64,000 nt of DNA from Thermoplasmatales archaeon (GTDB lineage: Archaea > Thermoplasmatota > Thermoplasmata > Thermoplasmatales > GCA-001856825). The translations under genes were made by a program, and so were the position numbers. The notes beneath the pieces were generated by a model. The model saw only the letters and a program-made list of their open reading frames with translations, did not search any database and was not told the origin of the DNA. Positions within the stretch are counted from its first letter, which is position 1. Every line of letters starts with the position of its first letter. Positions 3,190 to 11,154 of the stretch are shown piece by piece. The stretch is from positions 1,417 through 65,416 of the forward strand of contig JAVYRX010000005.1 in NCBI GenBank assembly GCA_038729485.1. Direction: 5' to 3'.

Positions 3190-4659
3190 TCAATGCTTGA
3201 AACCTCTTTCCCCAACATCTATAAAATTCATTCCGTATTTGTTCGCAAGGGAGATCACCTCATCATCCCTCACAGACCCTGTAGGTGCTGCCACGTTATG
3301 AATTCCATTAGACCACATGTATTCTATTGAATCCGGGAAAGGGAAAAATCCGTCTGAGATCAATAGGGAATCATTTGTTATCCTCCCTTTCTCCTTTGCC
3401 CTATCTATTGCGATTTTCACGGAATCAACTCTGTTAGGTTGGCCACCACAAGAGGAGATCAACCAGCCATCGCTCACTATAACTATTGCGTTACTCTTAA
3501 CTGATTTCACGATCTCCCACCCGAATTTTACATCTTCAATGATCCGCTGCGACGCTTCCCCAGATTTTATCTCGATCTTCAGGTTAGATTTCCTGTTCCA
3601 TTCCTGAACCAGAAGTAGATTTCCGGCCGACCTAATATCCGGGATCTTGTATGCTTCCTCTCTTCCTCTTAGGACCCTGAGGTTCTTCCTCTTCAGTAGA
3701 GCATCCAGTGCATTTCCTGAAAAATCCTTTGCGATTAGAACTTCAATGTATTTTCCTTTCAAGTATTCGGTCACAGCTTCGTCAACTTGTGAATTGACCG
3801 CGACTACCCCACCATAGGCAGAGATTGGATCTGACTCGAATGCTTTTCTCAGGCTGTCATGTCCTATGGCCGCACCGCATGGGGCAGCGTGCTTGATGAC
3901 AGAACTTGAGCCTTGTCCCAGCCTAAGGACAAGGTCCCATGATGCCCATGCATCCATGATGTTGTTGAAGCTAATTTCCTTCCCTTCCTTCACGATTTCA
4001 AAAAATGGATTGTAGGTGGCATAGGCGTGCGCTTTCTGGTGCGGATTCTCCCCGTACCTCAAGTCAGAAATAGATTGCCCGGCTACAGAAAAAATGTTGC
4101 CTTCTCCCCCAAACCATTCAGATACGACGAAGTCGTACCAAGAGGTGAACCTAAAAACTTCAGAAGCTAAGAACCTTCTCAAATCTAATGAAACCTCACC
4201 ATCTTTCATTTCTGCAGTAACCTTTTCCATATTCTTTCTACCAACAACTGGAATTACCCTGGAAAAGTTTTTAGCTGCTGATCTAAGGAGTGTGATGCCT
4301 CCGATATCTATAAATTCAGTTAGGTCTGTCTCTCCTGCCAAGAATTTCCCCCTAAAATCGTAAGGTTCTACATAAACTAGATCTATGGGCTTGCATCCAA
4401 ATTTTCTTATCTCTTCATCATCTCTAGTCCTTGCAAGTATCCCAGCAAGGAGGTTAAACGAGAGAGTCTTGATCCTGCCTCCCAGAATTTCAGGGGTTAA
4501 CGTTATTTTCTCAATTGGCTCGCATTTGACCCCTTTATCATCAAGATAGGCTTTAGTACCGCTGGTACAAAATAGATTGTATCCCTGGTCTATCAGGAAA
4601 AAAGATGACCTTTCTAAATCAGATTTATCGGATGTGGAAATAATTGCATTCCTTTCCAA
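3190..4659 (-). CDS. purH: Bifunctional AICAR transformylase/IMP cyclohydrolase
   Basis: GGRIKTL, IDIGGITLLRSAAKN, LRYGENPHQ, IKHAAPCG, KSNAIV, SDGFFPF motifs. Confidence 0.95.
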   Translation of the reverse strand: MERNAIISTSDKSDLERSSFFLIDQGYNLFCTSGTKAYLDDKGVKCEPIEKITLTPEILGGRIKTLSFNLLAGILARTRDDEEIRKFGCKPIDLVYVEPYDFRGKFLAGETDLTEFIDIGGITLLRSAAKNFSRVIPVVGRKNMEKVTAEMKDGEVSLDLRRFLASEVFRFTSWYDFVVSEWFGGEGNIFSVAGQSISDLRYGENPHQKAHAYATYNPFFEIVKEGKEISFNNIMDAWASWDLVLRLGQGSSSVIKHAAPCGAAIGHDSLRKAFESDPISAYGGVVAVNSQVDEAVTEYLKGKYIEVLIAKDFSGNALDALLKRKNLRVLRGREEAYKIPDIRSAGNLLLVQEWNRKSNLKIEIKSGEASQRIIEDVKFGWEIVKSVKSNAIVIVSDGWLISSCGGQPNRVDSVKIAIDRAKEKGRITNDSLLISDGFFPFPDSIEYMWSNGIHNVAAPTGSVRDDEVISLANKYGMNFIDVGERGFKH

Positions 4660-4786: not shown

Positions 4787-5983
4787 ATGGCGAAAAATAT
4801 AATCGTTGAATCTTTGCCACAGGCCCCGGTAGAGCAGAGAGAGGTGGAGATAGTCGAACGTAAAGGAATCGGCCATCCAGACTCAGTATCTGACGGAATT
4901 GCTGAAGCAGTAAGTAGGTCTCTTTCCAAATATTACTTGGAAAATTACGACCGAATTCTTCATCATAATACAGATCAGGTGGAGGTCGTGGGTGGGCAGT
5001 CTCAGCCAGAGTTTAACGGCGGTATTATATTGGAACCTGTGTATATTTTACTGTCAGGAAGAGCCACAACACAGGTGAACGGAAAAAGGATACCGTATAG
5101 GAGCATAGCTATCAAAGCTGCATCAGATTATCTCAAGGAGAGATTTGATACATTGAATATAGAAAGTGACGTAATGATTGACTGCAGGATAGGTCACGGG
5201 TCCGTTGATCTTAGGTCTCTCTATGATACCAGGAAACTGCTGTCAAACGACACGTCTTTCGGCGTTGGCTTTGCTCCATTTTCTGAAACCGAAACTGCCG
5301 TACTTGCTGCAGAGAAATATATTAATGGAGACCTGAAAAAGACAGTTCCGTCTCTAGGTTATGACGTCAAGGTTATGGGCTTTAGAAATAAAGGGACTAT
5401 AAACCTGACGATTGCGGCTGCCATGATCGGAAAATACATCAACAACAAGGAGGATTATACGGACAAGAAGGAAAAGGCCAGAGAGCTCATAGAGAGCCAT
5501 GTGCAGAAAAGAACAAAAAGGGAGGTCAAGGTGTTCGTAAATACCGCAGATAATCCGAATGATAACATCTATTATCTCACAGTAACGGGGCTCTCAATGG
5601 AAAATGGTGATGACGGTTCTGTCGGAAGGGGGAACAGAGTTACTGGCCTGATCACGCCGTATCGCCCAATGAGCATGGAAGCAGCTGCAGGCAAGAATCC
5701 GGTCACGCACGTTGGAAAGCTGTACAACATAGCAGCTATGAAGATAGCGGAAGAAGCGATTAAGGAATCAGGCGGAGACATTCCAGAAATTCATGTAAGG
5801 ATCGTTTCACAAATAGGGAGGCCCATTGATGACCCCCACGTTGCGAACATACAAATTGTCGGAGCATCTGAACAGATGGCAAAAAAGTATTCTGGAAAGT
5901 TCACGTCAATTGCGGATGATTGGCTTTCCAATCTTGATCGCATAACGAAGGGTCTCGTTGCGGGAGAAATAAATACATTCTGA
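4787..5983 (+). CDS. mat: Archaeal-type S-adenosylmethionine synthetase
   Basis: VERKGIGHPDS, HHNTD, NDTSFGVG, GDDGSVGRGNR, EAAAGKNPVTHVGKLYN motifs. Confidence 0.95.
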   Translation: MAKNIIVESLPQAPVEQREVEIVERKGIGHPDSVSDGIAEAVSRSLSKYYLENYDRILHHNTDQVEVVGGQSQPEFNGGIILEPVYILLSGRATTQVNGKRIPYRSIAIKAASDYLKERFDTLNIESDVMIDCRIGHGSVDLRSLYDTRKLLSNDTSFGVGFAPFSETETAVLAAEKYINGDLKKTVPSLGYDVKVMGFRNKGTINLTIAAAMIGKYINNKEDYTDKKEKARELIESHVQKRTKREVKVFVNTADNPNDNIYYLTVTGLSMENGDDGSVGRGNRVTGLITPYRPMSMEAAAGKNPVTHVGKLYNIAAMKIAEEAIKESGGDIPEIHVRIVSQIGRPIDDPHVANIQIVGASEQMAKKYSGKFTSIADDWLSNLDRITKGLVAGEINTF

Positions 5984-5988
5984 CCCAT

Positions 5989-6444
5989 ATGTTTGTGCAG
6001 TTCCACTCATTTAGCACTTCCCAACTGGACGAAGTAGTTGAGTTGGCCAGAAGAAACCTAACTGAGAGGTACAGCGATTTTGTTTTCCTCGACATCCAGA
6101 GGGCCTGGCCCTCTGGTTTTATTGTTGCCATTGCGGACAGCAGCATTGCCGGGTTTATCTGCGGCGGATTATCAGGCGACAGGGAGGCTAGAATATTGAT
6201 GCTTGCGGTTGATGCACCATACAGGAGGAAGGGGATAGGTTCCGCGCTGATGTCCCTTTTTGAGCAGGAAGCCATAAAGGTCAGGGTGAGGAGAATAAAG
6301 CTAGAGGTCAGAACTGACAGCGAAGGAGCCATAGCTTTCTACAGAAATCACAGTTACTCCGTCAGCGGTCTACTACCTTCATATTACAACGATGGCACGG
6401 ATGCCTTCACGATGGAAAAAGTGATCGCAGGAGGCCAAGACTAA
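5989..6444 (+). CDS. GNAT N-acetyltransferase, RimI/Ard1 family
   Basis: LAVDAPYRRKGIGSALM acetyl-CoA motif; LEVR...AIAFY...YYNDG.DA. Confidence 0.85.
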   Translation: MFVQFHSFSTSQLDEVVELARRNLTERYSDFVFLDIQRAWPSGFIVAIADSSIAGFICGGLSGDREARILMLAVDAPYRRKGIGSALMSLFEQEAIKVRVRRIKLEVRTDSEGAIAFYRNHSYSVSGLLPSYYNDGTDAFTMEKVIAGGQD

Positions 6445-6635
6445 AATTTCAGGAATATATATTTGTCAACTTTTTCAGAGAGGTCACGATCGAACTTATC
6501 GGGATATTGCCCTCTGTACCCCGCAAGCGCGATTGCCATTGTCCGATTTTCAGTGAGTATTTGGTAGTACTTGAATCTCAGTGAAGCAAGCCTTCCCTCA
6601 AGTGCAATTACCTTTCCTTGACCTGAGTTCGGCAT
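6441..6635 (-). CDS. Small hypothetical protein (64 aa); may be the C-terminal half of a gene frameshifted with the 6608-6751 ORF
   Basis: In the ORF track. GGAGG lies ~11 nt upstream of its ATG. It overlaps the upstream small ORF by 28 nt, and the heptad pattern continues (KVIALEGRLASLRFKYYQIL). Confidence 0.5.
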   Translation of the reverse strand: MPNSGQGKVIALEGRLASLRFKYYQILTENRTMAIALAGYRGQYPDKFDRDLSEKVDKYIFLKF

Positions 6636-6751
6636 TTTTCAAATTCCTCCAGTTTCTTGGACAATATTAGATGGTCGTCCTGTGCTATCTTTATTTTTTC
6701 CTCAAGATTACGAACCTCAAGCTCCAACTGGTCTATCTCCGTATTATCCAT
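6608..6751 (-). CDS. Unannotated 47-aa coiled-coil protein directly downstream of the candidate fluoride riboswitch
   Basis: Hand-translated: MDNTEIDQLELEVRNLEEKIKIAQDDHLILSKKLEEFEKCRTQVKER. SD-like AAGGTG just upstream of the ATG. Confidence 0.65.
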   Translation of the reverse strand: MDNTEIDQLELEVRNLEEKIKIAQDDHLILSKKLEEFEKCRTQVKER

Positions 6752-6763
6752 TATCACACCTTA

Positions 6764-6828
6764 GTTTAGGAATCATCATCCCAAAGGGTGTTTGGCTCTT
6801 TTGGAGCTCAGGAGGATCCCATCTCCTA
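6764..6828 (-). promoter_or_regulatory. Candidate fluoride riboswitch (crcB motif)
   Basis: Minus strand reads AGGAG-ATGGGATC-CTCCT-GAGCTCCAAAAGAGCC-AAACA-CCCTTTGGG-A-TGATG-ATTCC-TA. P1 is AGGAG/CTCCT, the pseudoknot is GGGAT/ATTCC, and P2 is CCC/GGG. The conserved GAUG, AAAC, UGAUG and 3' CUA elements are in the canonical order. Confidence 0.8.
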
Positions 6829-6865
6829 CAGTGAATCAAAGAATGGTATTTCAAGATTTCCAAGA

Positions 6866-7642
6866 TTAGATTATGAATTCGTCCTGATCAGGCTTTATTT
6901 CTGGGACAGGTAATGTATCCCTCTCTTTTGAAAGTACGCTAACCCATATGTCCCCATACGGCATTTCCTGGTTAAGGTAGATCCTACCGTAAAACGCAAG
7001 GAATAATGAAGACTGGAAGACGTCTATGAAGTCGTCAGCTCCTCCTCTCACCAATGATTCCATTGAGAAATGATCTACGTTATGGGCTACCATCCTGCTC
7101 CATACTTCAGATATTATTGCATGGAGGTCCTCGGGATGTGCAGTTTCCTGGAATATGATTTTCTTTGCCTTTCTTACAGAGTTCTTTATAAAATTCAATG
7201 GGGTATTCCTTATTGCGTTGACTATGTCGTCAACCGTCACGCTTCTCTTCTCTACGGGGAGGTAATCAATTGAAATAGGGGCCTCTTCAGATGGCTGCTC
7301 GTCAACGAACAACGGGTCCTCAACAGAATCGTCCTCCACTTCAGGTGGTGGTATCAGAAGATCACTCTTACTCCTTATGTTAACCCAAGCTAGATAAATG
7401 ATCTTTCCAGCAACAGGAAGGTCCCTAAAATTCTCATTGATTTCGTTAATAAAAATGGAAGTAAACTTGTCAAGGTCAATATTCCAGGGATCAAGATTGA
7501 ATTTTTCGACTACTTCGAACACCTTCAATACGAGTTCAGACTTCCTTTGTTCCAGATCAGCCGTGATCTCCTTCTCTATAATTTTCTCTATCACAGCCTG
7601 ATCCTTGTCACTATCAACAATCTGCATTATCAGCTCTGTCAT
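6866..7642 (-). CDS. scpA: Segregation and condensation protein A (kleisin)
   Basis: LDPWNIDL motif, C-terminal FQSSLFLAFYGRIYLNQEMPYGDIWV, and ATGA overlap with smc. Confidence 0.9.
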   Translation of the reverse strand: MTELIMQIVDSDKDQAVIEKIIEKEITADLEQRKSELVLKVFEVVEKFNLDPWNIDLDKFTSIFINEINENFRDLPVAGKIIYLAWVNIRSKSDLLIPPPEVEDDSVEDPLFVDEQPSEEAPISIDYLPVEKRSVTVDDIVNAIRNTPLNFIKNSVRKAKKIIFQETAHPEDLHAIISEVWSRMVAHNVDHFSMESLVRGGADDFIDVFQSSLFLAFYGRIYLNQEMPYGDIWVSVLSKERDTLPVPEIKPDQDEFII

Positions 7643-10600
7643 GTTGTAGCTACGCCCCCATCCAAATCCTTGACAAAGACAGTACTGCTCTTGTCTTGGA
7701 AGGTAACACCTATTATTTGATTGGCATATTTCATAGTGGCTTTTCTAAGCGTCACCGCAATTATCTGCGCATTCTCTGAATTTTTTCTAAAGAGACTACC
7801 AACGTTTTCAGCATTCACCCCGTCCAAGAACATGTCAACTTCGTCCATGAAGTAAATAGGAGATGGTTCATAGTTTTGTATAGCAATTATAAACGACAGT
7901 GCAGCTATGCTTTTTTCTCCGCCGCTCAATGAAGCTAAGTTATCTGCTTTCTTTGCCTTGGAAGAGGCTTTTATGAAGAGGCCTCCCTGGAACGGGTTGG
8001 TAACGTTCTCCAATTCAAGATAACCCTCATTTCCGTTAGTTAGTTCCTTGTATATCTGTATGAAATTCTTATTGACAGCCTCGAACACCTCCAGGAACAC
8101 CACCTTCTTCTGTTCTTCGAGCTTTCCTTGAAGCTCATCGAGTTTCCTCATTTCTTCTTCAAGTCTAGTTTTCTTGGAGACAAGTTCTTCCAACCTTGTA
8201 TTTTCCGCTTCGTAATCTGAGATGCTCTTCAAATTTACCGGCTCCATCTGCTTCAGTTGCGATTCTAGATTTGTTATTTCTCTCTTTATTTCTTCGTGAG
8301 TTCGTTGATCTTCAGAAAATTCCACCTTGCTTTCTTCAATTTCTCTTGTCATTTCTTGTATTCTGGAAAATGCATCCTCCATCTTAGTCCTGAGAGAAAT
8401 CAAGAAATCTGCCTTTGCCTTCTTTATTGCACCTTTTGATTCTAAATCGGATGTAACTTTATATCTTTCATTCGAAAGCTTGTCTATCTCTGCTCCCATT
8501 TTCTTTAGTTTCTCCTCCTCCGAACGATAGAGGGCCGATATAGCTTCAATTTCAGCCTTAGTCTTATTTATTTGAGAAGAAGATTCTTCAAGCCTATTTT
8601 TCGCATCAGCAAGGTCCTCTTGCTTTCTTTCCAAGTTTTCCTGTACCGATTCCCTGTTGGTCTTCAACACACTTCCGTTTGTGCGGAGTTCAGCGAGCCT
8701 TTTGTTGTCCTCTTCTATCTTGCCTTTGGAATCCTCAAGTCTTCCTCTGAGCTCCCTTATCTCTTCCCTAGTCTTCTTATCAAGGGTCTTTTCCTTATCG
8801 AGTTCTACTTTTTGGATCTCGCCAGATAACTCCTTCACCTCAGACTCCATCTTGGCAAGATCCGCTTTATTCTTTTCAAGCTCCTGCTGTCCTGCCTGAA
8901 GAATTTTTTTCCTTTCTTCTAGATATACCCTCTTTTTCCTCATTTCTTCTTCGAGTTCCTTTTTCCTGCTGAGAATCTGCTCCAGTTCACCTTGGCTTTT
9001 GCCGGTCTGGATGCTTATCCTATTAAGTTGTTCAGCAATGTTCCTAAGATCCTTATCTAGCTTGGTCAAATTTTCTTTTATTTCGGATCTTCTTTCTTTG
9101 AGAGATGAAAGCCTTGAAGATAGTCCTTCGATATCCTTATTTACTTCTCTCTTTGGAAGCAGTCCCCCGGTCATGGCATTGCTCGGATCGATGAGGTCAC
9201 CGTCAAGCGTGACAAGCCTGACCCCTCCCATTACGCTTCTCGCTATCTCCAAATCTTTTACAAGAAGAGTATCGGAAAATACGTAACTTATTATGTCCTT
9301 TAAAGTTTGGTCAGAGTTTATTCTGTCTGCCAGGAAGCCCAGTGTACTCCCATTCTGAGAAAGCATTACTGCTTTTCCGCGGGGCCTGATGGGTATAATT
9401 TTGTTCAAAGGAAGGAATGTCAGCCTTCCTTTCCCTTTTCTCTTAAGGAGTTCTATGGCTCCCTGAGCGTTTTCGTCGCTGTCTACAACTATGCTGAATA
9501 GTCTGTTTCCACCAGCAGCCCTAACAGCCTTTTCAAATTCTGGCTCATAAGATATCAAGGAATCGACGGCTCCCCTAATACCCTTAATGTTTCCCTTTGA
9601 AGCCTCTGAAGAAATAAAATTTATGCTCTCCCAGATACCAGAAACCTTGACCCCCTGCATCTTTCCGAGTTCGCCTTCCACTTTTTCTATTTCAGATGTC
9701 AGTCTTTCTTCCTCTTCCCTGAGCTCTTCAATCTTCTTTTTAGTCTGAAGGTATAATTTATTAAGATTTTCAGACTCTGGGTCGCCTTTCTTCAAGTTCT
9801 TAGCCCTCCATTCCGCATCCTTCACGGAGAACTCGAGATTGGAGATCTCCTCCTCTATCCTCGAGACTTCCTCGATTATCGATGAGTTCTTCGTCTCTGC
9901 CGCGGATATTGTGGAATTCATTTTTGAAATGTTCTCAAGCAATTTTTCCTTTTTTGCCGAAAGTTCCTTTGACGCCTTTACTAGGGCATCGTACTTGTCG
10001 AGAGACGTGGACGATTTATTTTCCATGTCAAGTATTGTGAGCTCAAGTTCCTTGGCTTCATCCTCTCTCTTTCCAATTGCAGCTATAAGCTGATTCGCCT
10101 GTTCCTCATTCTTCTTTTCTTCTTCCTCCAACTTTTTCTTTTTTGCAACGAGTTCAAATATTTCCCTTTTCAAGCTAGTTATCTTAGATTCCAAGTTATC
10201 TTTTTCCATCTCGTGCTTCGCAAATTCAATCTTTTTAGCATCTAGATCCTCTTTTATCTTATTTAAGCCTTCAATTTCCTTGTTGTTTCCTTTTATTTCT
10301 TTTATTTTCTTATCTAATTCGTCGCCTCGTGAAGTGAGTTGCCCTATTTCGTTGTCGATGTTAGTGATTTCTGAATTAATCTTTTCCATCTGTTCCTTAA
10401 TGACTTCGATTTCCTTTTCAGTCTCTCTCTTTCTTCTAAAGAGTAATATGGCTTGATCCCTGTCTATTTCTTTTTTCTTTGCAAGATAAACCTCCGCAAT
10501 CTCCTTTTCCCGTTGTAGTAAAGACACTCTACCTGAAAGTTCTGTTATCAATGCCTGAACAGTTACCATATTCTCATTTGTCTTCTCCTTCTCCTTGTCA

Positions 10601-11154
10601 GCCTTTTCTATCTCCTCGTTGTACTGTGCTATCCCCCCAACTTCCTCTAAAATCCCTCTTCTCTCTGCCGGCGTCATCTCTACTATGCTTGTAATGTCTC
10701 CCTGTCTGACAAAATTATAACCGTCAGCAAATATTTTGACTTTCTCTAGGAGATATTCAAAATCCTGCAGTCTAGCCCTGTCATCATTTATGTAATAATA
10801 GGATGAGAATTCCTGGTCGTTGCTCTCTGATAATTTTACGACTCTCGTGAAAGTAACCTCGTTGGAATCTAAAGGGATCATCTTATCGGTGTTGTCAAAA
10901 GTAACACTGGCTTTCAAGTAAGGAGAGGGTTTGCCTGATTGGTTCTTGTGAATTAGATCAGTGAGCTTTTGCGCCCTGATCGATTTGTTGCTTTTTGTAC
11001 CAAGGACAAATAAAAGTGCATCTCCTATGTTGCTCTTCCCAGACGCATTCGGTCCGGTCACCGATGTATAACCCTGCTTGAACTCAATTACAGTCCTCCT
11101 TCCAAACGACTTGAAATTCTCCATTTCTATTCTTTTTAGGAACATGTTTTTCAC
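7639..11154 (-). CDS. smc: Chromosome segregation protein SMC
   Basis: NFKSF, Walker A GPNASGKSN, two long coiled coils, hinge (GRLTFLPL, LVTLDGD...MTGG), LSGGEKS signature, Walker B DEVD. Confidence 0.97.
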   Translation of the reverse strand: MKNMFLKRIEMENFKSFGRRTVIEFKQGYTSVTGPNASGKSNIGDALLFVLGTKSNKSIRAQKLTDLIHKNQSGKPSPYLKASVTFDNTDKMIPLDSNEVTFTRVVKLSESNDQEFSSYYYINDDRARLQDFEYLLEKVKIFADGYNFVRQGDITSIVEMTPAERRGILEEVGGIAQYNEEIEKADKEKEKTNENMVTVQALITELSGRVSLLQREKEIAEVYLAKKKEIDRDQAILLFRRKRETEKEIEVIKEQMEKINSEITNIDNEIGQLTSRGDELDKKIKEIKGNNKEIEGLNKIKEDLDAKKIEFAKHEMEKDNLESKITSLKREIFELVAKKKKLEEEEKKNEEQANQLIAAIGKREDEAKELELTILDMENKSSTSLDKYDALVKASKELSAKKEKLLENISKMNSTISAAETKNSSIIEEVSRIEEEISNLEFSVKDAEWRAKNLKKGDPESENLNKLYLQTKKKIEELREEEERLTSEIEKVEGELGKMQGVKVSGIWESINFISSEASKGNIKGIRGAVDSLISYEPEFEKAVRAAGGNRLFSIVVDSDENAQGAIELLKRKGKGRLTFLPLNKIIPIRPRGKAVMLSQNGSTLGFLADRINSDQTLKDIISYVFSDTLLVKDLEIARSVMGGVRLVTLDGDLIDPSNAMTGGLLPKREVNKDIEGLSSRLSSLKERRSEIKENLTKLDKDLRNIAEQLNRISIQTGKSQGELEQILSRKKELEEEMRKKRVYLEERKKILQAGQQELEKNKADLAKMESEVKELSGEIQKVELDKEKTLDKKTREEIRELRGRLEDSKGKIEEDNKRLAELRTNGSVLKTNRESVQENLERKQEDLADAKNRLEESSSQINKTKAEIEAISALYRSEEEKLKKMGAEIDKLSNERYKVTSDLESKGAIKKAKADFLISLRTKMEDAFSRIQEMTREIEESKVEFSEDQRTHEEIKREITNLESQLKQMEPVNLKSISDYEAENTRLEELVSKKTRLEEEMRKLDELQGKLEEQKKVVFLEVFEAVNKNFIQIYKELTNGNEGYLELENVTNPFQGGLFIKASSKAKKADNLASLSGGEKSIAALSFIIAIQNYEPSPIYFMDEVDMFLDGVNAENVGSLFRKNSENAQIIAVTLRKATMKYANQIIGVTFQDKSSTVFVKDLDGGVATT

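What the first reader, a model, noticed from the sequence alone, without database searches (positions are those of the whole stretch)
6608..6828. Archaeal fluoride riboswitch candidate controlling an unknown coiled-coil gene, not a fluoride exporter
Seen: the gap after scpA on the minus strand contains every element of the crcB/fluoride aptamer in order. These are P1 AGGAG/CTCCT with a GAUG loop, AAAC, a short P2, UGAUG, pseudoknot GGGAU/AUUCC and CUA. An extra GCTC-CAAAA-GAGC hairpin is inserted between P1 and AAAC. The aptamer ends a few nt before an AAGGUG SD and the ATG of an unannotated 47-aa ORF, and a TTGAAATA box lies ~20-25 nt upstream. Established: fluoride riboswitches are among the few riboswitch classes in archaea and usually precede Fluc/CrcB or CLC-F exporters or fluoride-sensitive enzymes. 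No such gene is downstream here, because the unit ends head-to-head with the acetyltransferase gene. Inference: a translationally controlled soluble fluoride-response protein of unknown type, plausible in an acidophile exposed to HF.
Basis: partly seen in the sequence, partly recalled or inferred. Interest (0 to 1): 0.85.

Follow-up and report, generated by a model that had tools for sequence, protein, structure and literature searches.

The report
Fluoride riboswitch before two small coiled-coil genes
This acid-loving archaeon has a genuine fluoride-sensing RNA switch that sits in front of two tiny, conserved helical proteins of no known family rather than a fluoride exporter, which points to an undescribed part of the fluoride stress response.

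Summary
Window 6760-6835 (-) matches Rfam Fluoride RF01734 over the whole model at 32.8 bits. That is 1.2 bits under the cut-off of 34, with E 1.1e-6. The shortfall comes from a 14-nt inserted hairpin and a weak second stem.

The element is orthologous in 17 of 18 congeners. Order-wide, 11 of 13 base pairs, including the pseudoknot, show compensatory changes.

It precedes a translationally coupled pair of genes. ORF1 is 47 aa and ORF2 is 64 aa. Both are under purifying selection, and neither has a Pfam or NCBIfam family. The two are predicted to form a parallel heterodimeric coiled coil, with score 0.79 against a best control of 0.01.

In other Thermoplasmatales families the same riboswitch precedes longer homologues. 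The N-terminus of their ORF2 homologue models as a ribbon-helix-helix-like fold, with weak E-values.

CrcB was found in 1 of 41 relatives searched and not in this genome.

My reading is a fluoride-induced translational ON switch. The function of the protein pair is unknown, and my best guess is a regulator or adaptor. Nothing here was tested at the bench.

The parts
6847..6861 (-).
   Evidence: Sequence read. In 18 of 18 related leaders a GAAA-rich plus A/T-rich box sits at about the same distance upstream of P1, roughly -36 to -21 (aligned by eye). Its promoter function and the transcription start are inferred, not shown.
6760..6835 (-). Fluoride riboswitch aptamer (crcB motif, RF01734). It comprises P1 (6827-6810), the pseudoknot (6820-6815 with 6774-6769), the second stem (6788-6780) and UGAUGA (6778-6773).
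   Evidence: cmscan gives 32.8 bits against a gathering score of 34, E 1.1e-6, model positions 1-64. Covariation was counted.
6794..6809 (-). Extra hairpin inserted between P1 and the AAAC linker: G6809-C6794, A6808 bulged, stem GCUC/GAGC, loop CAAAA.
   Evidence: cmscan treats it as a 14-nt insertion. It is present in all 18 aptamers of alignment A1. In the per-pair table the two outer stem pairs are standard pairs in 17 and 16 of 18 sequences. The two inner pairs change on both sides in 3 sequences each (UA/UG/CG; CG/UG/AU/GC/UA). The innermost pair is unpaired in 7 of 16 sequences.
6755..6762 (-). Shine-Dalgarno region AAGGUGUG, 5 nt before the ATG. It is the target of the alternative (OFF) pairing.
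   Evidence: In the pseudoknot-free minimum-energy fold, G6760 G6759 U6758 G6757 U6756 pair with C6787 C6788 A6789 C6790 A6791. P(unpaired) is 0.0 for G6760, G6759 and G6757. That fold is -23.1 kcal/mol, against -12.7 for the aptamer helices alone.
6608..6751 (-). ORF1: 47 aa from ATG 6751, with an alternative GTG start at 6757 giving 49 aa. Predicted to be a single coiled-coil helix.
   Evidence: ORF list. Orthologues of 41-49 aa follow the aptamer in 16 related loci. dN is well below dS where it can be computed. No Pfam or NCBIfam family matched.
6441..6635 (-). ORF2: 64 aa, overlapping ORF1 by 28 nt, with its own GAGGA upstream. It carries the conserved core ASLRFxYY...N..LA..L.GYR..P..F......Y.
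   Evidence: The family is rare: 66 representatives at E <= 1e-3 among 1.84 billion proteins. No Pfam or NCBIfam family matched.

Best explanation
A genuine fluoride riboswitch of the crcB-motif class, carrying a lineage-specific extra hairpin, forms the 5' leader of a two-gene mRNA.

Inferred mechanism:
- Without fluoride, the leader folds so that the 5' strand of the second stem and its linker (ACACC) pair with the Shine-Dalgarno GGUGU. The 3' strand of that stem pairs with the 3' strand of the pseudoknot. ORF1 is then not translated.
- With fluoride, the pseudoknotted aptamer forms, the SD is released, and ORF1 is translated. ORF2 follows through coupling to the overlapping ORF1.

The two products, 47 and 64 aa, assemble into a parallel heterodimeric coiled coil. 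This pair is the short form of a Thermoplasmatales protein-pair family. The longer ORF2 homologues carry an N-terminal ribbon-helix-helix-like domain.

I therefore think the pair is a fluoride-induced regulatory or adaptor complex, not a transporter or enzyme. The lineage generally lacks the Fluc/CrcB channel.

What is shown: the aptamer's identity, conservation and covariation; the conserved coupled gene pair under purifying selection.

What is predicted only: heterodimer formation and the SD-sequestering fold.

What is inferred: fluoride binding, the ON direction, and the function of the pair.
For: Aptamer:
- RF01734 matches over the full model at 32.8 bits, E 1.1e-6.
- It is the best RF01734 hit in the whole 1.3-Mb genome.
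- RF01734 matched at E <= 0.01 in 34 of 41 genomes (the window's genome and 40 relatives). 21 of the 41 were over the cut-off, and 17 of 18 same-genus relatives matched.
- Genus-level alignment A1 (18 sequences): 95% of cells are paired, 0 of 500 shuffles reach that, and slid controls give 28-65%.
- Order-level alignment A7 (30 sequences): 97.4% paired, 11 of 13 pairs change on both sides, 84 such cells, 0 of 500 shuffles reach the paired percentage, the count of such cells or the covariation score. Slid controls give 37-60%.

Fluoride regulon context:
- A second, weaker aptamer lies in the same genome (20.5 bits, E 0.0016). It sits 30 nt before a MutS domain V gene.
- mutS and formate hydrogen lyase genes are published crcB-motif partners (PMC2864571, section 'crcB motif', passages read).
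- In relative L009 the aptamer precedes an NADHdh-family membrane protein.

Gene pair:
- 26 of the 30 aptamer loci fetched have an ORF2-family gene downstream on the same strand.
- ORF1 and ORF2 overlap by 4 nt (ATGA/GTGA/TTGA) in 11 of the 16 pairs listed.
- Going the other way, 13 of 13 loci found through ORF2 homology carry the aptamer upstream. These genomes largely overlap those.
- dS is saturated in most pairs while dN is 0.14-0.5. Where both can be computed, dN/dS is about 0.07-0.24.

Heterodimer:
- ipSAE 0.79, with best of 3 controls 0.01. That mark was reached by 58 of 80 solved complexes and by 2 of 110 mismatched pairs.
- The runs agree in at least 95% of contacts, and partner pLDDT is at least 82.
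- The conserved residues sit at the interface. ORF2 N30 and L19, invariant among the 12 short forms, contact ORF1 A23, D26 and L16, which are nearly invariant.

Expression platform:
- SD pairing with aptamer strands.
- No T-run follows the aptamer.
Against: - The window's own copy scores below Rfam's gathering cut-off (32.8 against 34). Its second stem is the weakest in the genus. In the family register it has a C.A mismatch. Alternatively it is a slipped 3-bp CCC/GGG stem with a 3-nt loop.
- Its closest relatives score as low as 27.5-28.6 bits.
- No transcript, fluoride-binding or translation data exist for this locus. No sequencing run was listed.
- SD sequestration is not seen uniformly. 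In a crude scan, only 10 of 17 related leaders had 3 or more SD-window nucleotides paired to aptamer nucleotides in the minimum-energy fold. That scan suffered from uncertain start codons.
- More distant members of the protein family (families f7, f14, f10, f35) show no aptamer within about 1.5 kb: 1 of 14 loci had one. The pair is therefore not intrinsically tied to fluoride.
- The window's proteins lack the RHH-like domain. No separate homologue of that domain was found in this 92%-complete genome. A DNA-binding role therefore cannot simply be carried over.
- All RHH fold matches have Foldseek E of 0.86 or more. No Pfam RHH model matched at E < 0.09.
Confidence: 0.75

Rival explanations
1. 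The aptamer in this particular genome is a decaying or non-responsive copy. The ancestral riboswitch is real in relatives, but here the weakened second stem has made expression of the pair constitutive or silent.
For: The score is under the cut-off. There is a C.A mismatch or slipped register in the second stem. The sub-clade of closest relatives scores 27.5-33.1 bits.
Against: All other core elements are intact: P1, the 6-bp pseudoknot, UGAUGA and CCUA. The CCC/GGG stem is kept in all 5 members of the sub-clade, while loop and linker bases differ. That is the pattern expected for a maintained structure. The downstream ORFs are under purifying selection.
Confidence: 0.12
2. The riboswitch acts on transcription (premature termination or RNA stability) rather than on translation initiation.
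For: Many bacterial fluoride riboswitches use terminators that overlap the motif (PMC2864571, passages read). How archaeal riboswitches act is barely studied.
Against: There is no oligo-T tract between the aptamer and the ATG. The SD lies 6 nt after the pseudoknot strand and is fully paired to aptamer nucleotides in the ligand-free fold.
Confidence: 0.08
3. The region encodes a C/D-box sRNA, or is a chance resemblance, and is not a riboswitch.
For: Weak cmscan hits overlap the UGAUGA stretch: sR60 at 21 bits (E 0.072) and sR5 at 12.9 bits.
Against: Both hits are far under their gathering scores of 50 and 40. I saw no D box (CUGA) in the sequence. The conservation and compensatory changes follow the fluoride-aptamer pairs exactly.
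Confidence: 0.02
4. The small ORFs are not the regulated cargo. They are leader peptides or noise, and the switch serves something else.
For: The ORFs are very short (47 and 64 aa) and have no known family.
Against: The next gene is convergent, so nothing else lies downstream on this strand. Both ORFs are conserved across genera, with dN well below dS. Their homologues reach 105-133 aa in other families. The complex prediction is confident.
Confidence: 0.03

Closest known systems
Fluoride riboswitch / crcB motif (Rfam RF01734; Weinberg et al. 2010, PMC2864571; Baker et al. 2012, cited from the review PMC7266159)
   Same: It has the same architecture: P1, a pseudoknot between the P1 loop and the 3' tail, a short second stem, and conserved GAUGG, AAC, UGAUGA and CCUA. 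It sits in a 5' leader. Sister copies precede MutS-like and formate-hydrogenlyase-type genes, as published.
   Different: It carries an extra 3-5 bp hairpin between P1 and the linker, which the Rfam model treats as an insertion. It scores 1.2 bits under the cut-off. Its cargo is a pair of small soluble helical proteins, a class not named among the partners in the passages I could read. Whether such an optional hairpin is already drawn in the published consensus I cannot say. The figures and supplements were not available.
Archaeal fluoride-responsive riboswitch of Thermococcus kodakarensis (Speed et al. 2018)
   Same: It is an archaeal fluoride riboswitch thought to act on translation. I know this only through a sentence in PMC8241225.
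   Different: That sentence says it presumably regulates fluoride-export genes. Here no exporter is downstream, and CrcB was not found in the genome. The paper itself was not held.
Ribbon-helix-helix regulators with a C-terminal helix (CopG, ParG, PutA N-domain, TacA/KacA/AtaR antitoxins)
   Same: The N-terminal 50 residues of the long-form ORF2 homologues model as beta-alpha-alpha. They superpose on CopG and PutA RHH domains at rmsd 1.0-1.1 A over 35-38 residues, with TM by target of 0.69-0.77. A profile hit to CopG has E 0.038. Atlas structure neighbours are RHH_1, TacA1 and ParG clusters with TM 0.40-0.57.
   Different: All of these matches are statistically weak. No Pfam RHH model matched. 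There is an extra N-terminal strand. The window's own ORF1 and ORF2 lack this domain entirely.
Leucine-zipper-type dimeric coiled coils with a buried Asn (GCN4-like)
   Same: The model is a parallel two-helix interface with a conserved Asn (ORF2 N30) at its centre. The long-form profile hits GCN4 zipper chains at E 1.4e-4.
   Different: That is only a compositional or heptad likeness. There is no basic DNA-binding region. ORF2 has an additional conserved C-terminal helix (GYR..P..F......Y) that packs back onto the coiled coil, with interface residues 40-59.

Membership tests
Fluoride riboswitch (RF01734) | Covariance-model score at or above Rfam's gathering score (34 bits) | tested here: not met
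   The window copy scores 32.8 bits, E 1.1e-6. RF01734 matches in 21 of the 41 genomes searched, own genome included, are over the cut-off at up to 46.4 bits.
Fluoride riboswitch (RF01734) | P1, the second stem and the pseudoknot supported by compensatory changes | tested here: met
   Alignment A7 (30 sequences): 97.4% of cells paired, 11 of 13 pairs with changes on both sides, and 0 of 500 shuffles reach the paired percentage or the covariation score. Slid controls give 37-60%. Within the genus.
Fluoride riboswitch (RF01734) | Conserved core nucleotides (GAUGG in the P1 loop, AAC linker, UGAUGA, CCUA) | tested here: met
   The cmscan alignment line shows them matched. They are invariant or nearly invariant columns in A1 and A7.
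Fluoride riboswitch (RF01734) | Location in the 5' leader of a co-oriented gene, with an expression platform | tested here: met
   The aptamer ends 8 nt before the ATG. The SD pairs with aptamer strands in the ligand-free fold. A promoter-like box lies upstream.
Fluoride riboswitch (RF01734) | Selective binding of fluoride with Mg2+ | not testable with these tools
   This needs in-line probing or ITC.
Fluoride riboswitch (RF01734) | Association with fluoride-toxicity genes (crcB, CLC-F, mutS-like, formate hydrogenlyase and others) | tested here: inconclusive
   This copy precedes only the unknown pair. The second copy in the genome precedes a MutS_V gene. Copies in relatives precede an NADHdh-type gene and, in one case, crcB.
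Ribbon-helix-helix DNA-binding proteins (for the protein pair) | An N-terminal beta-alpha-alpha domain | tested here: not met
   The window's ORF1 and ORF2 begin directly with the coiled coil. Only the long-form ORF2 homologues in other families have the domain, as a model with weak RHH matches. The long-form ORF1 gave no RHH hit by sequence profile.
   Downstream are the 47-aa and 64-aa ORFs, which matched no Pfam or NCBIfam family including CRCB and Voltage_CLC, followed by a convergent GNAT gene. PF02537 was not found in the genome. The one CLC gene lies on another contig, with no aptamer hit there.

The most novel reading that the evidence does not exclude
Extreme acidophiles of the Thermoplasmatales have dispensed with the Fluc channel. 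Instead they wire the fluoride riboswitch to a dedicated heterodimeric coiled-coil protein pair.

In its long form this pair would be a two-subunit RHH transcription factor. That would make a riboswitch-to-transcription-factor cascade governing a fluoride regulon.

In the window's genus the pair has lost its DNA-binding heads. It would then act as a new kind of fluoride-stress effector, for example by binding and protecting or inhibiting a fluoride-sensitive target, or by titrating a partner.
Probability: 0.3. Interest if true: 0.8.

Novelty: new variant of a known kind. Interest (0 to 1): 0.62.

Why it matters
Fluoride riboswitches have served as a guide to fluoride-defence genes. CrcB and CLC-F were recognised as exporters through them (review PMC7266159, passages read).

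Here the same guide points to a protein pair with no known family. The lineage lives at very low pH, where HF should enter cells freely (established chemistry; inference). CrcB was found in only 1 of 41 genomes searched.

If the pair is fluoride-induced, it marks an unexplored branch of the fluoride response. It would also give a concrete handle on how extreme acidophiles cope with fluoride.

It would add a natural translational riboswitch in archaea as well. One paper states that only one natural archaeal riboswitch had been shown experimentally by 2021 (PMC8241225).

Tried and rejected
Protein family and fold searches:
- Pfam and NCBIfam scans of ORF1, ORF2 and the long forms returned only sub-threshold coiled-coil noise.
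- Foldseek on the full long-form ORF2 model gave no match at E <= 0.001.
- VIA-align wide gave only generic long-helix matches, Z <= 6.7 over residues 50-132.
- A PDB profile search with the long-form ORF1 gave no RHH hit. My impression that its N-terminus is also RHH-like rests on reading the sequence only.
- The N-terminal domain profile (A6) found nothing in the window's genome, which proves nothing for a 52-residue profile.

Locus and context searches:
I repeated it with the genus-level alignment A3.
- Two of the 15 loci (L050, L051) were not scanned for the aptamer because of the base limit.
- Neighbours of distant family members gave no functional lead. I saw a radical-SAM-like gene, a GNAT, an aldo-keto-reductase-like gene and an alcohol-dehydrogenase-like gene by eye, not scanned.

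Expression platform and expression data:
- The SD-accessibility comparison across relatives necessarily rises when partners are removed, so I do not count it as evidence. The script also crashed after 15 rows.
- The partner-count version (10 of 17 leaders) is confounded by uncertain start codons.
- No RNA or DNA holder was listed for window 6300-7000.

The C/D-box sRNA reading was rejected because its scores are far under the cut-offs.

Literature:
- Four full-text searches found no paper linking a fluoride riboswitch to these small proteins.
- A 2026 preprint on a divergent fluoride riboswitch concerns crcB-linked loci.
- Baker 2012 (PMC4140402), Stockbridge 2012 (PMC3458365) and Speed 2018 (PMC5861836) were not held.
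- Supplements are closed. The gene tables of Weinberg 2010 and Baker 2012 may already list these hypothetical genes.

Full report
OBSERVATION

- P1 is AGGAG (6827-6823) paired with CUCCU (6814-6810). It encloses the loop AUGGGAUC.
- A hairpin GCUC-CAAAA-GAGC lies at 6807-6795.
- The AAAC linker is at 6793-6790.
- A short CCC/GGG stem spans 6788-6780.
- UGAUGA is at 6778-6773.
- The 3' pseudoknot strand AUUCC (6773-6769) is complementary to GGGAU (6820-6816).
- CUA follows, then AAGGUG (6762-6757), then ATG at 6751.

Infernal against all of Rfam aligns the complete Fluoride model RF01734 (positions 1-64) to 6760-6835 (-). The score is 32.8 bits and E is 1.1e-6, against a gathering score of 34. 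The model treats the extra hairpin as a 14-nt insertion and flags one non-canonical pair in the second stem. This is the best RF01734 match in the whole 1.31-Mb, 92%-complete genome.

IS IT MORE THAN CHANCE?

I searched RF01734 in the window's genome and 40 relatives. It matched in 34 of the 41 at E <= 0.01, in 21 of the 41 above the cut-off, and in 17 of 18 same-genus relatives.

The same-genus matches fetched as loci are nearly all 73-77 nt and carry the same insertion.

On an alignment of 18 such sequences:
- 95% of pair cells are standard pairs;
- 0 of 500 shuffles reach this;
- slid controls give 28-65%;
- both-side changes occur in the pseudoknot, the inserted hairpin and the second stem.

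On an order-wide alignment of 30 aptamers:
- 97.4% of cells pair;
- 11 of 13 pairs show changes on both sides, in 84 cells;
- 0 of 500 shuffles reach the paired percentage, the count of such cells or the covariation score;
- slid controls give 37-60%.

The window's second stem is the weakest of the genus. In the family register it has a C.A mismatch, or else it is a slipped CCC/GGG stem with a 3-nt loop. The CCC/GGG stem is kept in all 5 members of its sub-clade, while loops and linkers differ. This stem, together with the insertion, explains the sub-threshold score.

CONTEXT

The aptamer lies after the stop codon of scpA (6866-7642, PF02616). It is preceded by GGAAATCTTGAAATA (6861-6847). A comparable GAAA-rich plus A/T-rich box sits at the same distance from P1 in 18 of 18 related leaders (aligned by eye). 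The promoter role and a transcription start near P1 are inferences.

Two ORFs lie downstream on the same strand:
- ORF1, 6751-6608, 47 aa;
- ORF2, 6635-6441, 64 aa, overlapping ORF1 by 28 nt.

ORF2 then overlaps, tail to tail by 4 nt, a convergent GNAT acetyltransferase gene (5989-6444 +). No transporter lies downstream.

CrcB (PF02537) was not found in this genome. It was found in only 1 of 41 genomes searched, on a 2.3-kb contig of an assembly with 5% contamination. Four complete single-contig genomes were among those without it.

The one CLC gene is on another contig, with no aptamer hit. It has GREGP and a long C-terminal tail. From memory, that looks like a canonical CLC rather than CLC-F. 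I did not test this.

A second, weaker aptamer (20.5 bits) lies elsewhere in the genome, 30 nt before a MutS domain V gene. In relatives the aptamer also precedes an NADH-dehydrogenase/formate-hydrogenlyase-type membrane subunit (L009). mutS and formate hydrogen lyase genes are published partners of the crcB motif (PMC2864571, passages read). That places these archaeal copies in the ordinary fluoride regulon.

THE GENE PAIR

Of the 30 aptamer loci fetched, 26 have an ORF2-family gene downstream.
- In 18 loci, from the window's taxonomic family, the pair is short: ORF1 41-49 aa and ORF2 64-86 aa.
- In 8 loci, from two other families of the order, the pair is long: 72-117 aa plus 120-132 aa.

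The stop of ORF1 and the start of ORF2 overlap by 4 nt in 11 of the 16 pairs listed.

Both proteins align across short and long forms.
- ORF2 has the core ASLRFxYY...N..LA..L.GY.........Y.
- ORF1 has nearly invariant L16, A23 and D26.

Synonymous divergence is saturated in most pairs while dN is 0.14-0.5. Where both can be computed, dN/dS is about 0.07-0.24. Rows with mismatched start choices were ignored. Neither protein matches any Pfam or NCBIfam model.

A profile of ORF2 found only 66 representatives at E <= 1e-3 among 1.84 billion proteins. Most are 120-160 aa. A few are fused to DUF6062.

Fifteen loci in GTDB species genomes matched the genus-level profile. All are titled Thermoplasmatales or Thermoplasmata MAGs, and two are titled 'I-plasma'. 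The 13 of these that I scanned all carry the aptamer 121-183 nt upstream of the ORF2 match. They largely overlap the genomes, so this is not independent evidence.

Class-wide, 21 of 301 genomes have the family: f5 5/5, f4 3/3, f7 6/33 and f14 4/10. Of 14 further loci, only one, from f5, has an aptamer. Distant members are therefore not riboswitch-linked, although several of those I read still have a small upstream coiled-coil ORF.

WHAT THE PROTEINS LOOK LIKE

A complex prediction of ORF2 with ORF1, each supplied with its alignment, scored ipSAE 0.79. The best of three controls scored 0.01. That mark was reached by 58 of 80 solved complexes and by 2 of 110 mismatched pairs. The runs agree in at least 95% of contacts, and partner pLDDT is at least 82. 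This supports binding but does not show it.

The contacts run in parallel register: ORF2 residue i contacts ORF1 residue i-3. They place ORF2 N30 and L19 against ORF1 A23, D26 and L16. The conserved residues are therefore the interface.

The long-form ORF2 from L008 models with pLDDT 87. It has two strands, two helices, a 59-residue helix and a short C-terminal helix. Its first 52 residues, modelled alone (pLDDT 83), give ribbon-helix-helix proteins as the top 11 Foldseek rows: YiiF, ORF56, CopG, PutA, StnY and CopA-SO. TM by target is 0.50-0.79. For CopG and PutA the rmsd is 1.0-1.1 A over 35-38 residues. All E-values are 0.86 or higher.

Two further weak lines agree:
- a profile hit to CopG at E 0.038;
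- RHH_1, TacA1 and ParG clusters among the Atlas structure neighbours, TM 0.40-0.57.

I therefore regard the long forms as probable RHH-headed coiled-coil proteins. The window's short forms lack that head.

MECHANISM

The pseudoknot-free minimum-energy fold of the leader is -23.1 kcal/mol. In it, G6760-U6756 of the SD pair with C6787-A6791, which are the 5' strand of the second stem plus the linker. The 3' strand of that stem pairs with the 3' strand of the pseudoknot. P(unpaired) is 0.0 for three SD guanines. The aptamer helices alone score -12.7 kcal/mol.

The two states are mutually exclusive. Fluoride-stabilised docking of the pseudoknot should therefore free the SD, which makes this a translational ON switch. 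ORF2 would follow by coupling. No T-run terminator is present.

Across relatives, the same logic appears in some leaders. In L028, GCCCUUC pairs with the SD region GAAGGGU. My crude count was only 10 of 17, so conservation of the platform is not established.

COMPARISON AND NOVELTY

The RNA is a member-like variant of a well-known class. The new features are its extra hairpin and, above all, its cargo.

In the text I could read, the stated partners of the motif are transporters, mutS and formate hydrogen lyase. Four full-text searches found nothing on these small proteins. Key papers and all supplements were unavailable, so prior listing as 'hypothetical' cannot be excluded.

VERDICT

- The riboswitch identity and its control of a conserved bicistron: confidence about 0.75-0.8.
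- The heterodimer: predicted only.
- A regulatory or adaptor function for the pair: my best guess, about 0.3-0.4.

Interest is 0.62. This is a solid lead to an undescribed fluoride-response component in a lineage where CrcB was found in only 1 of 41 genomes searched.

Noticed in passing
outside the window: G000 contig C1:189722-189778 (+), locus L002:1501-1557: A second fluoride aptamer in the same genome (RF01734, 20.5 bits, E 0.0016). It lies 30 nt upstream of an ORF of at least 490 aa with a MutS domain V (PF00488, 2.4e-20). Similar matches of about 57 nt occur in several relatives.
   Followed up: partly
whole genomes G000-G040: CrcB (PF02537) was found in only 1 of 41 Thermoplasmatales genomes searched. 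It lay on a 2.3-kb contig next to an aptamer, in an assembly with 5% contamination. 34 of the 41 genomes have fluoride aptamers. The order seems to respond to fluoride largely without Fluc.
   Followed up: partly
outside the window: G000 contig C7, locus L036:1237-3045 (+): The only CLC-family gene of the genome (602 aa, PF00654, 2.6e-91). It has GREGP and a long C-terminal tail, and no aptamer hit nearby. From memory this looks like a canonical CLC rather than the fluoride-specific clade. Not tested.
   Followed up: no
window 5989-6444 (+), and loci L065-L067: A GNAT acetyltransferase gene converges on ORF2 with a 4-nt overlap. The same convergent arrangement of an ORF2-like gene with a GNAT-like gene (GNAT-like by eye, not scanned) recurs in another family of the order (f7), where no aptamer is present. 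This may be conserved gene order or a functional link.
   Followed up: no
proteins P0037, P0038, P0066 (also P0032): The conserved C-terminal module of ORF2 occurs fused to DUF6062 (PF19538), a Cys-rich domain of unknown function, in proteins of 356-400 aa from unnamed sources. The 186-aa P0032 carries only a DUF6062 fragment.
   Followed up: partly
locus L074:1432-1827 (genome G028, just upstream of its aptamer): A paralogous long-form ORF2 gene sits immediately upstream of the aptamer that controls the main pair. That genome therefore has tandem copies, one outside riboswitch control. G038 and G285 also have second copies.
   Followed up: no
window 6730-6783 (-): A weak cmscan hit to the C/D-box sRNA sR60 (21 bits against a gathering score of 50). 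It is caused by the UGAUGA of the aptamer and is probably meaningless.
   Followed up: yes
window 6866-11154 (-): smc (1171 aa) and scpA (258 aa, PF02616) overlap by 4 nt directly upstream of the riboswitch unit. The smc call is by eye from the translation. Only scpA was scanned.
   Followed up: partly
window 3190-4659 (-) and 4787-5983 (+): By eye, a PurH-like gene (489 aa) and an archaeal-type S-adenosylmethionine synthetase-like gene (398 aa) flank the GNAT gene. Neither was scanned.
   Followed up: no
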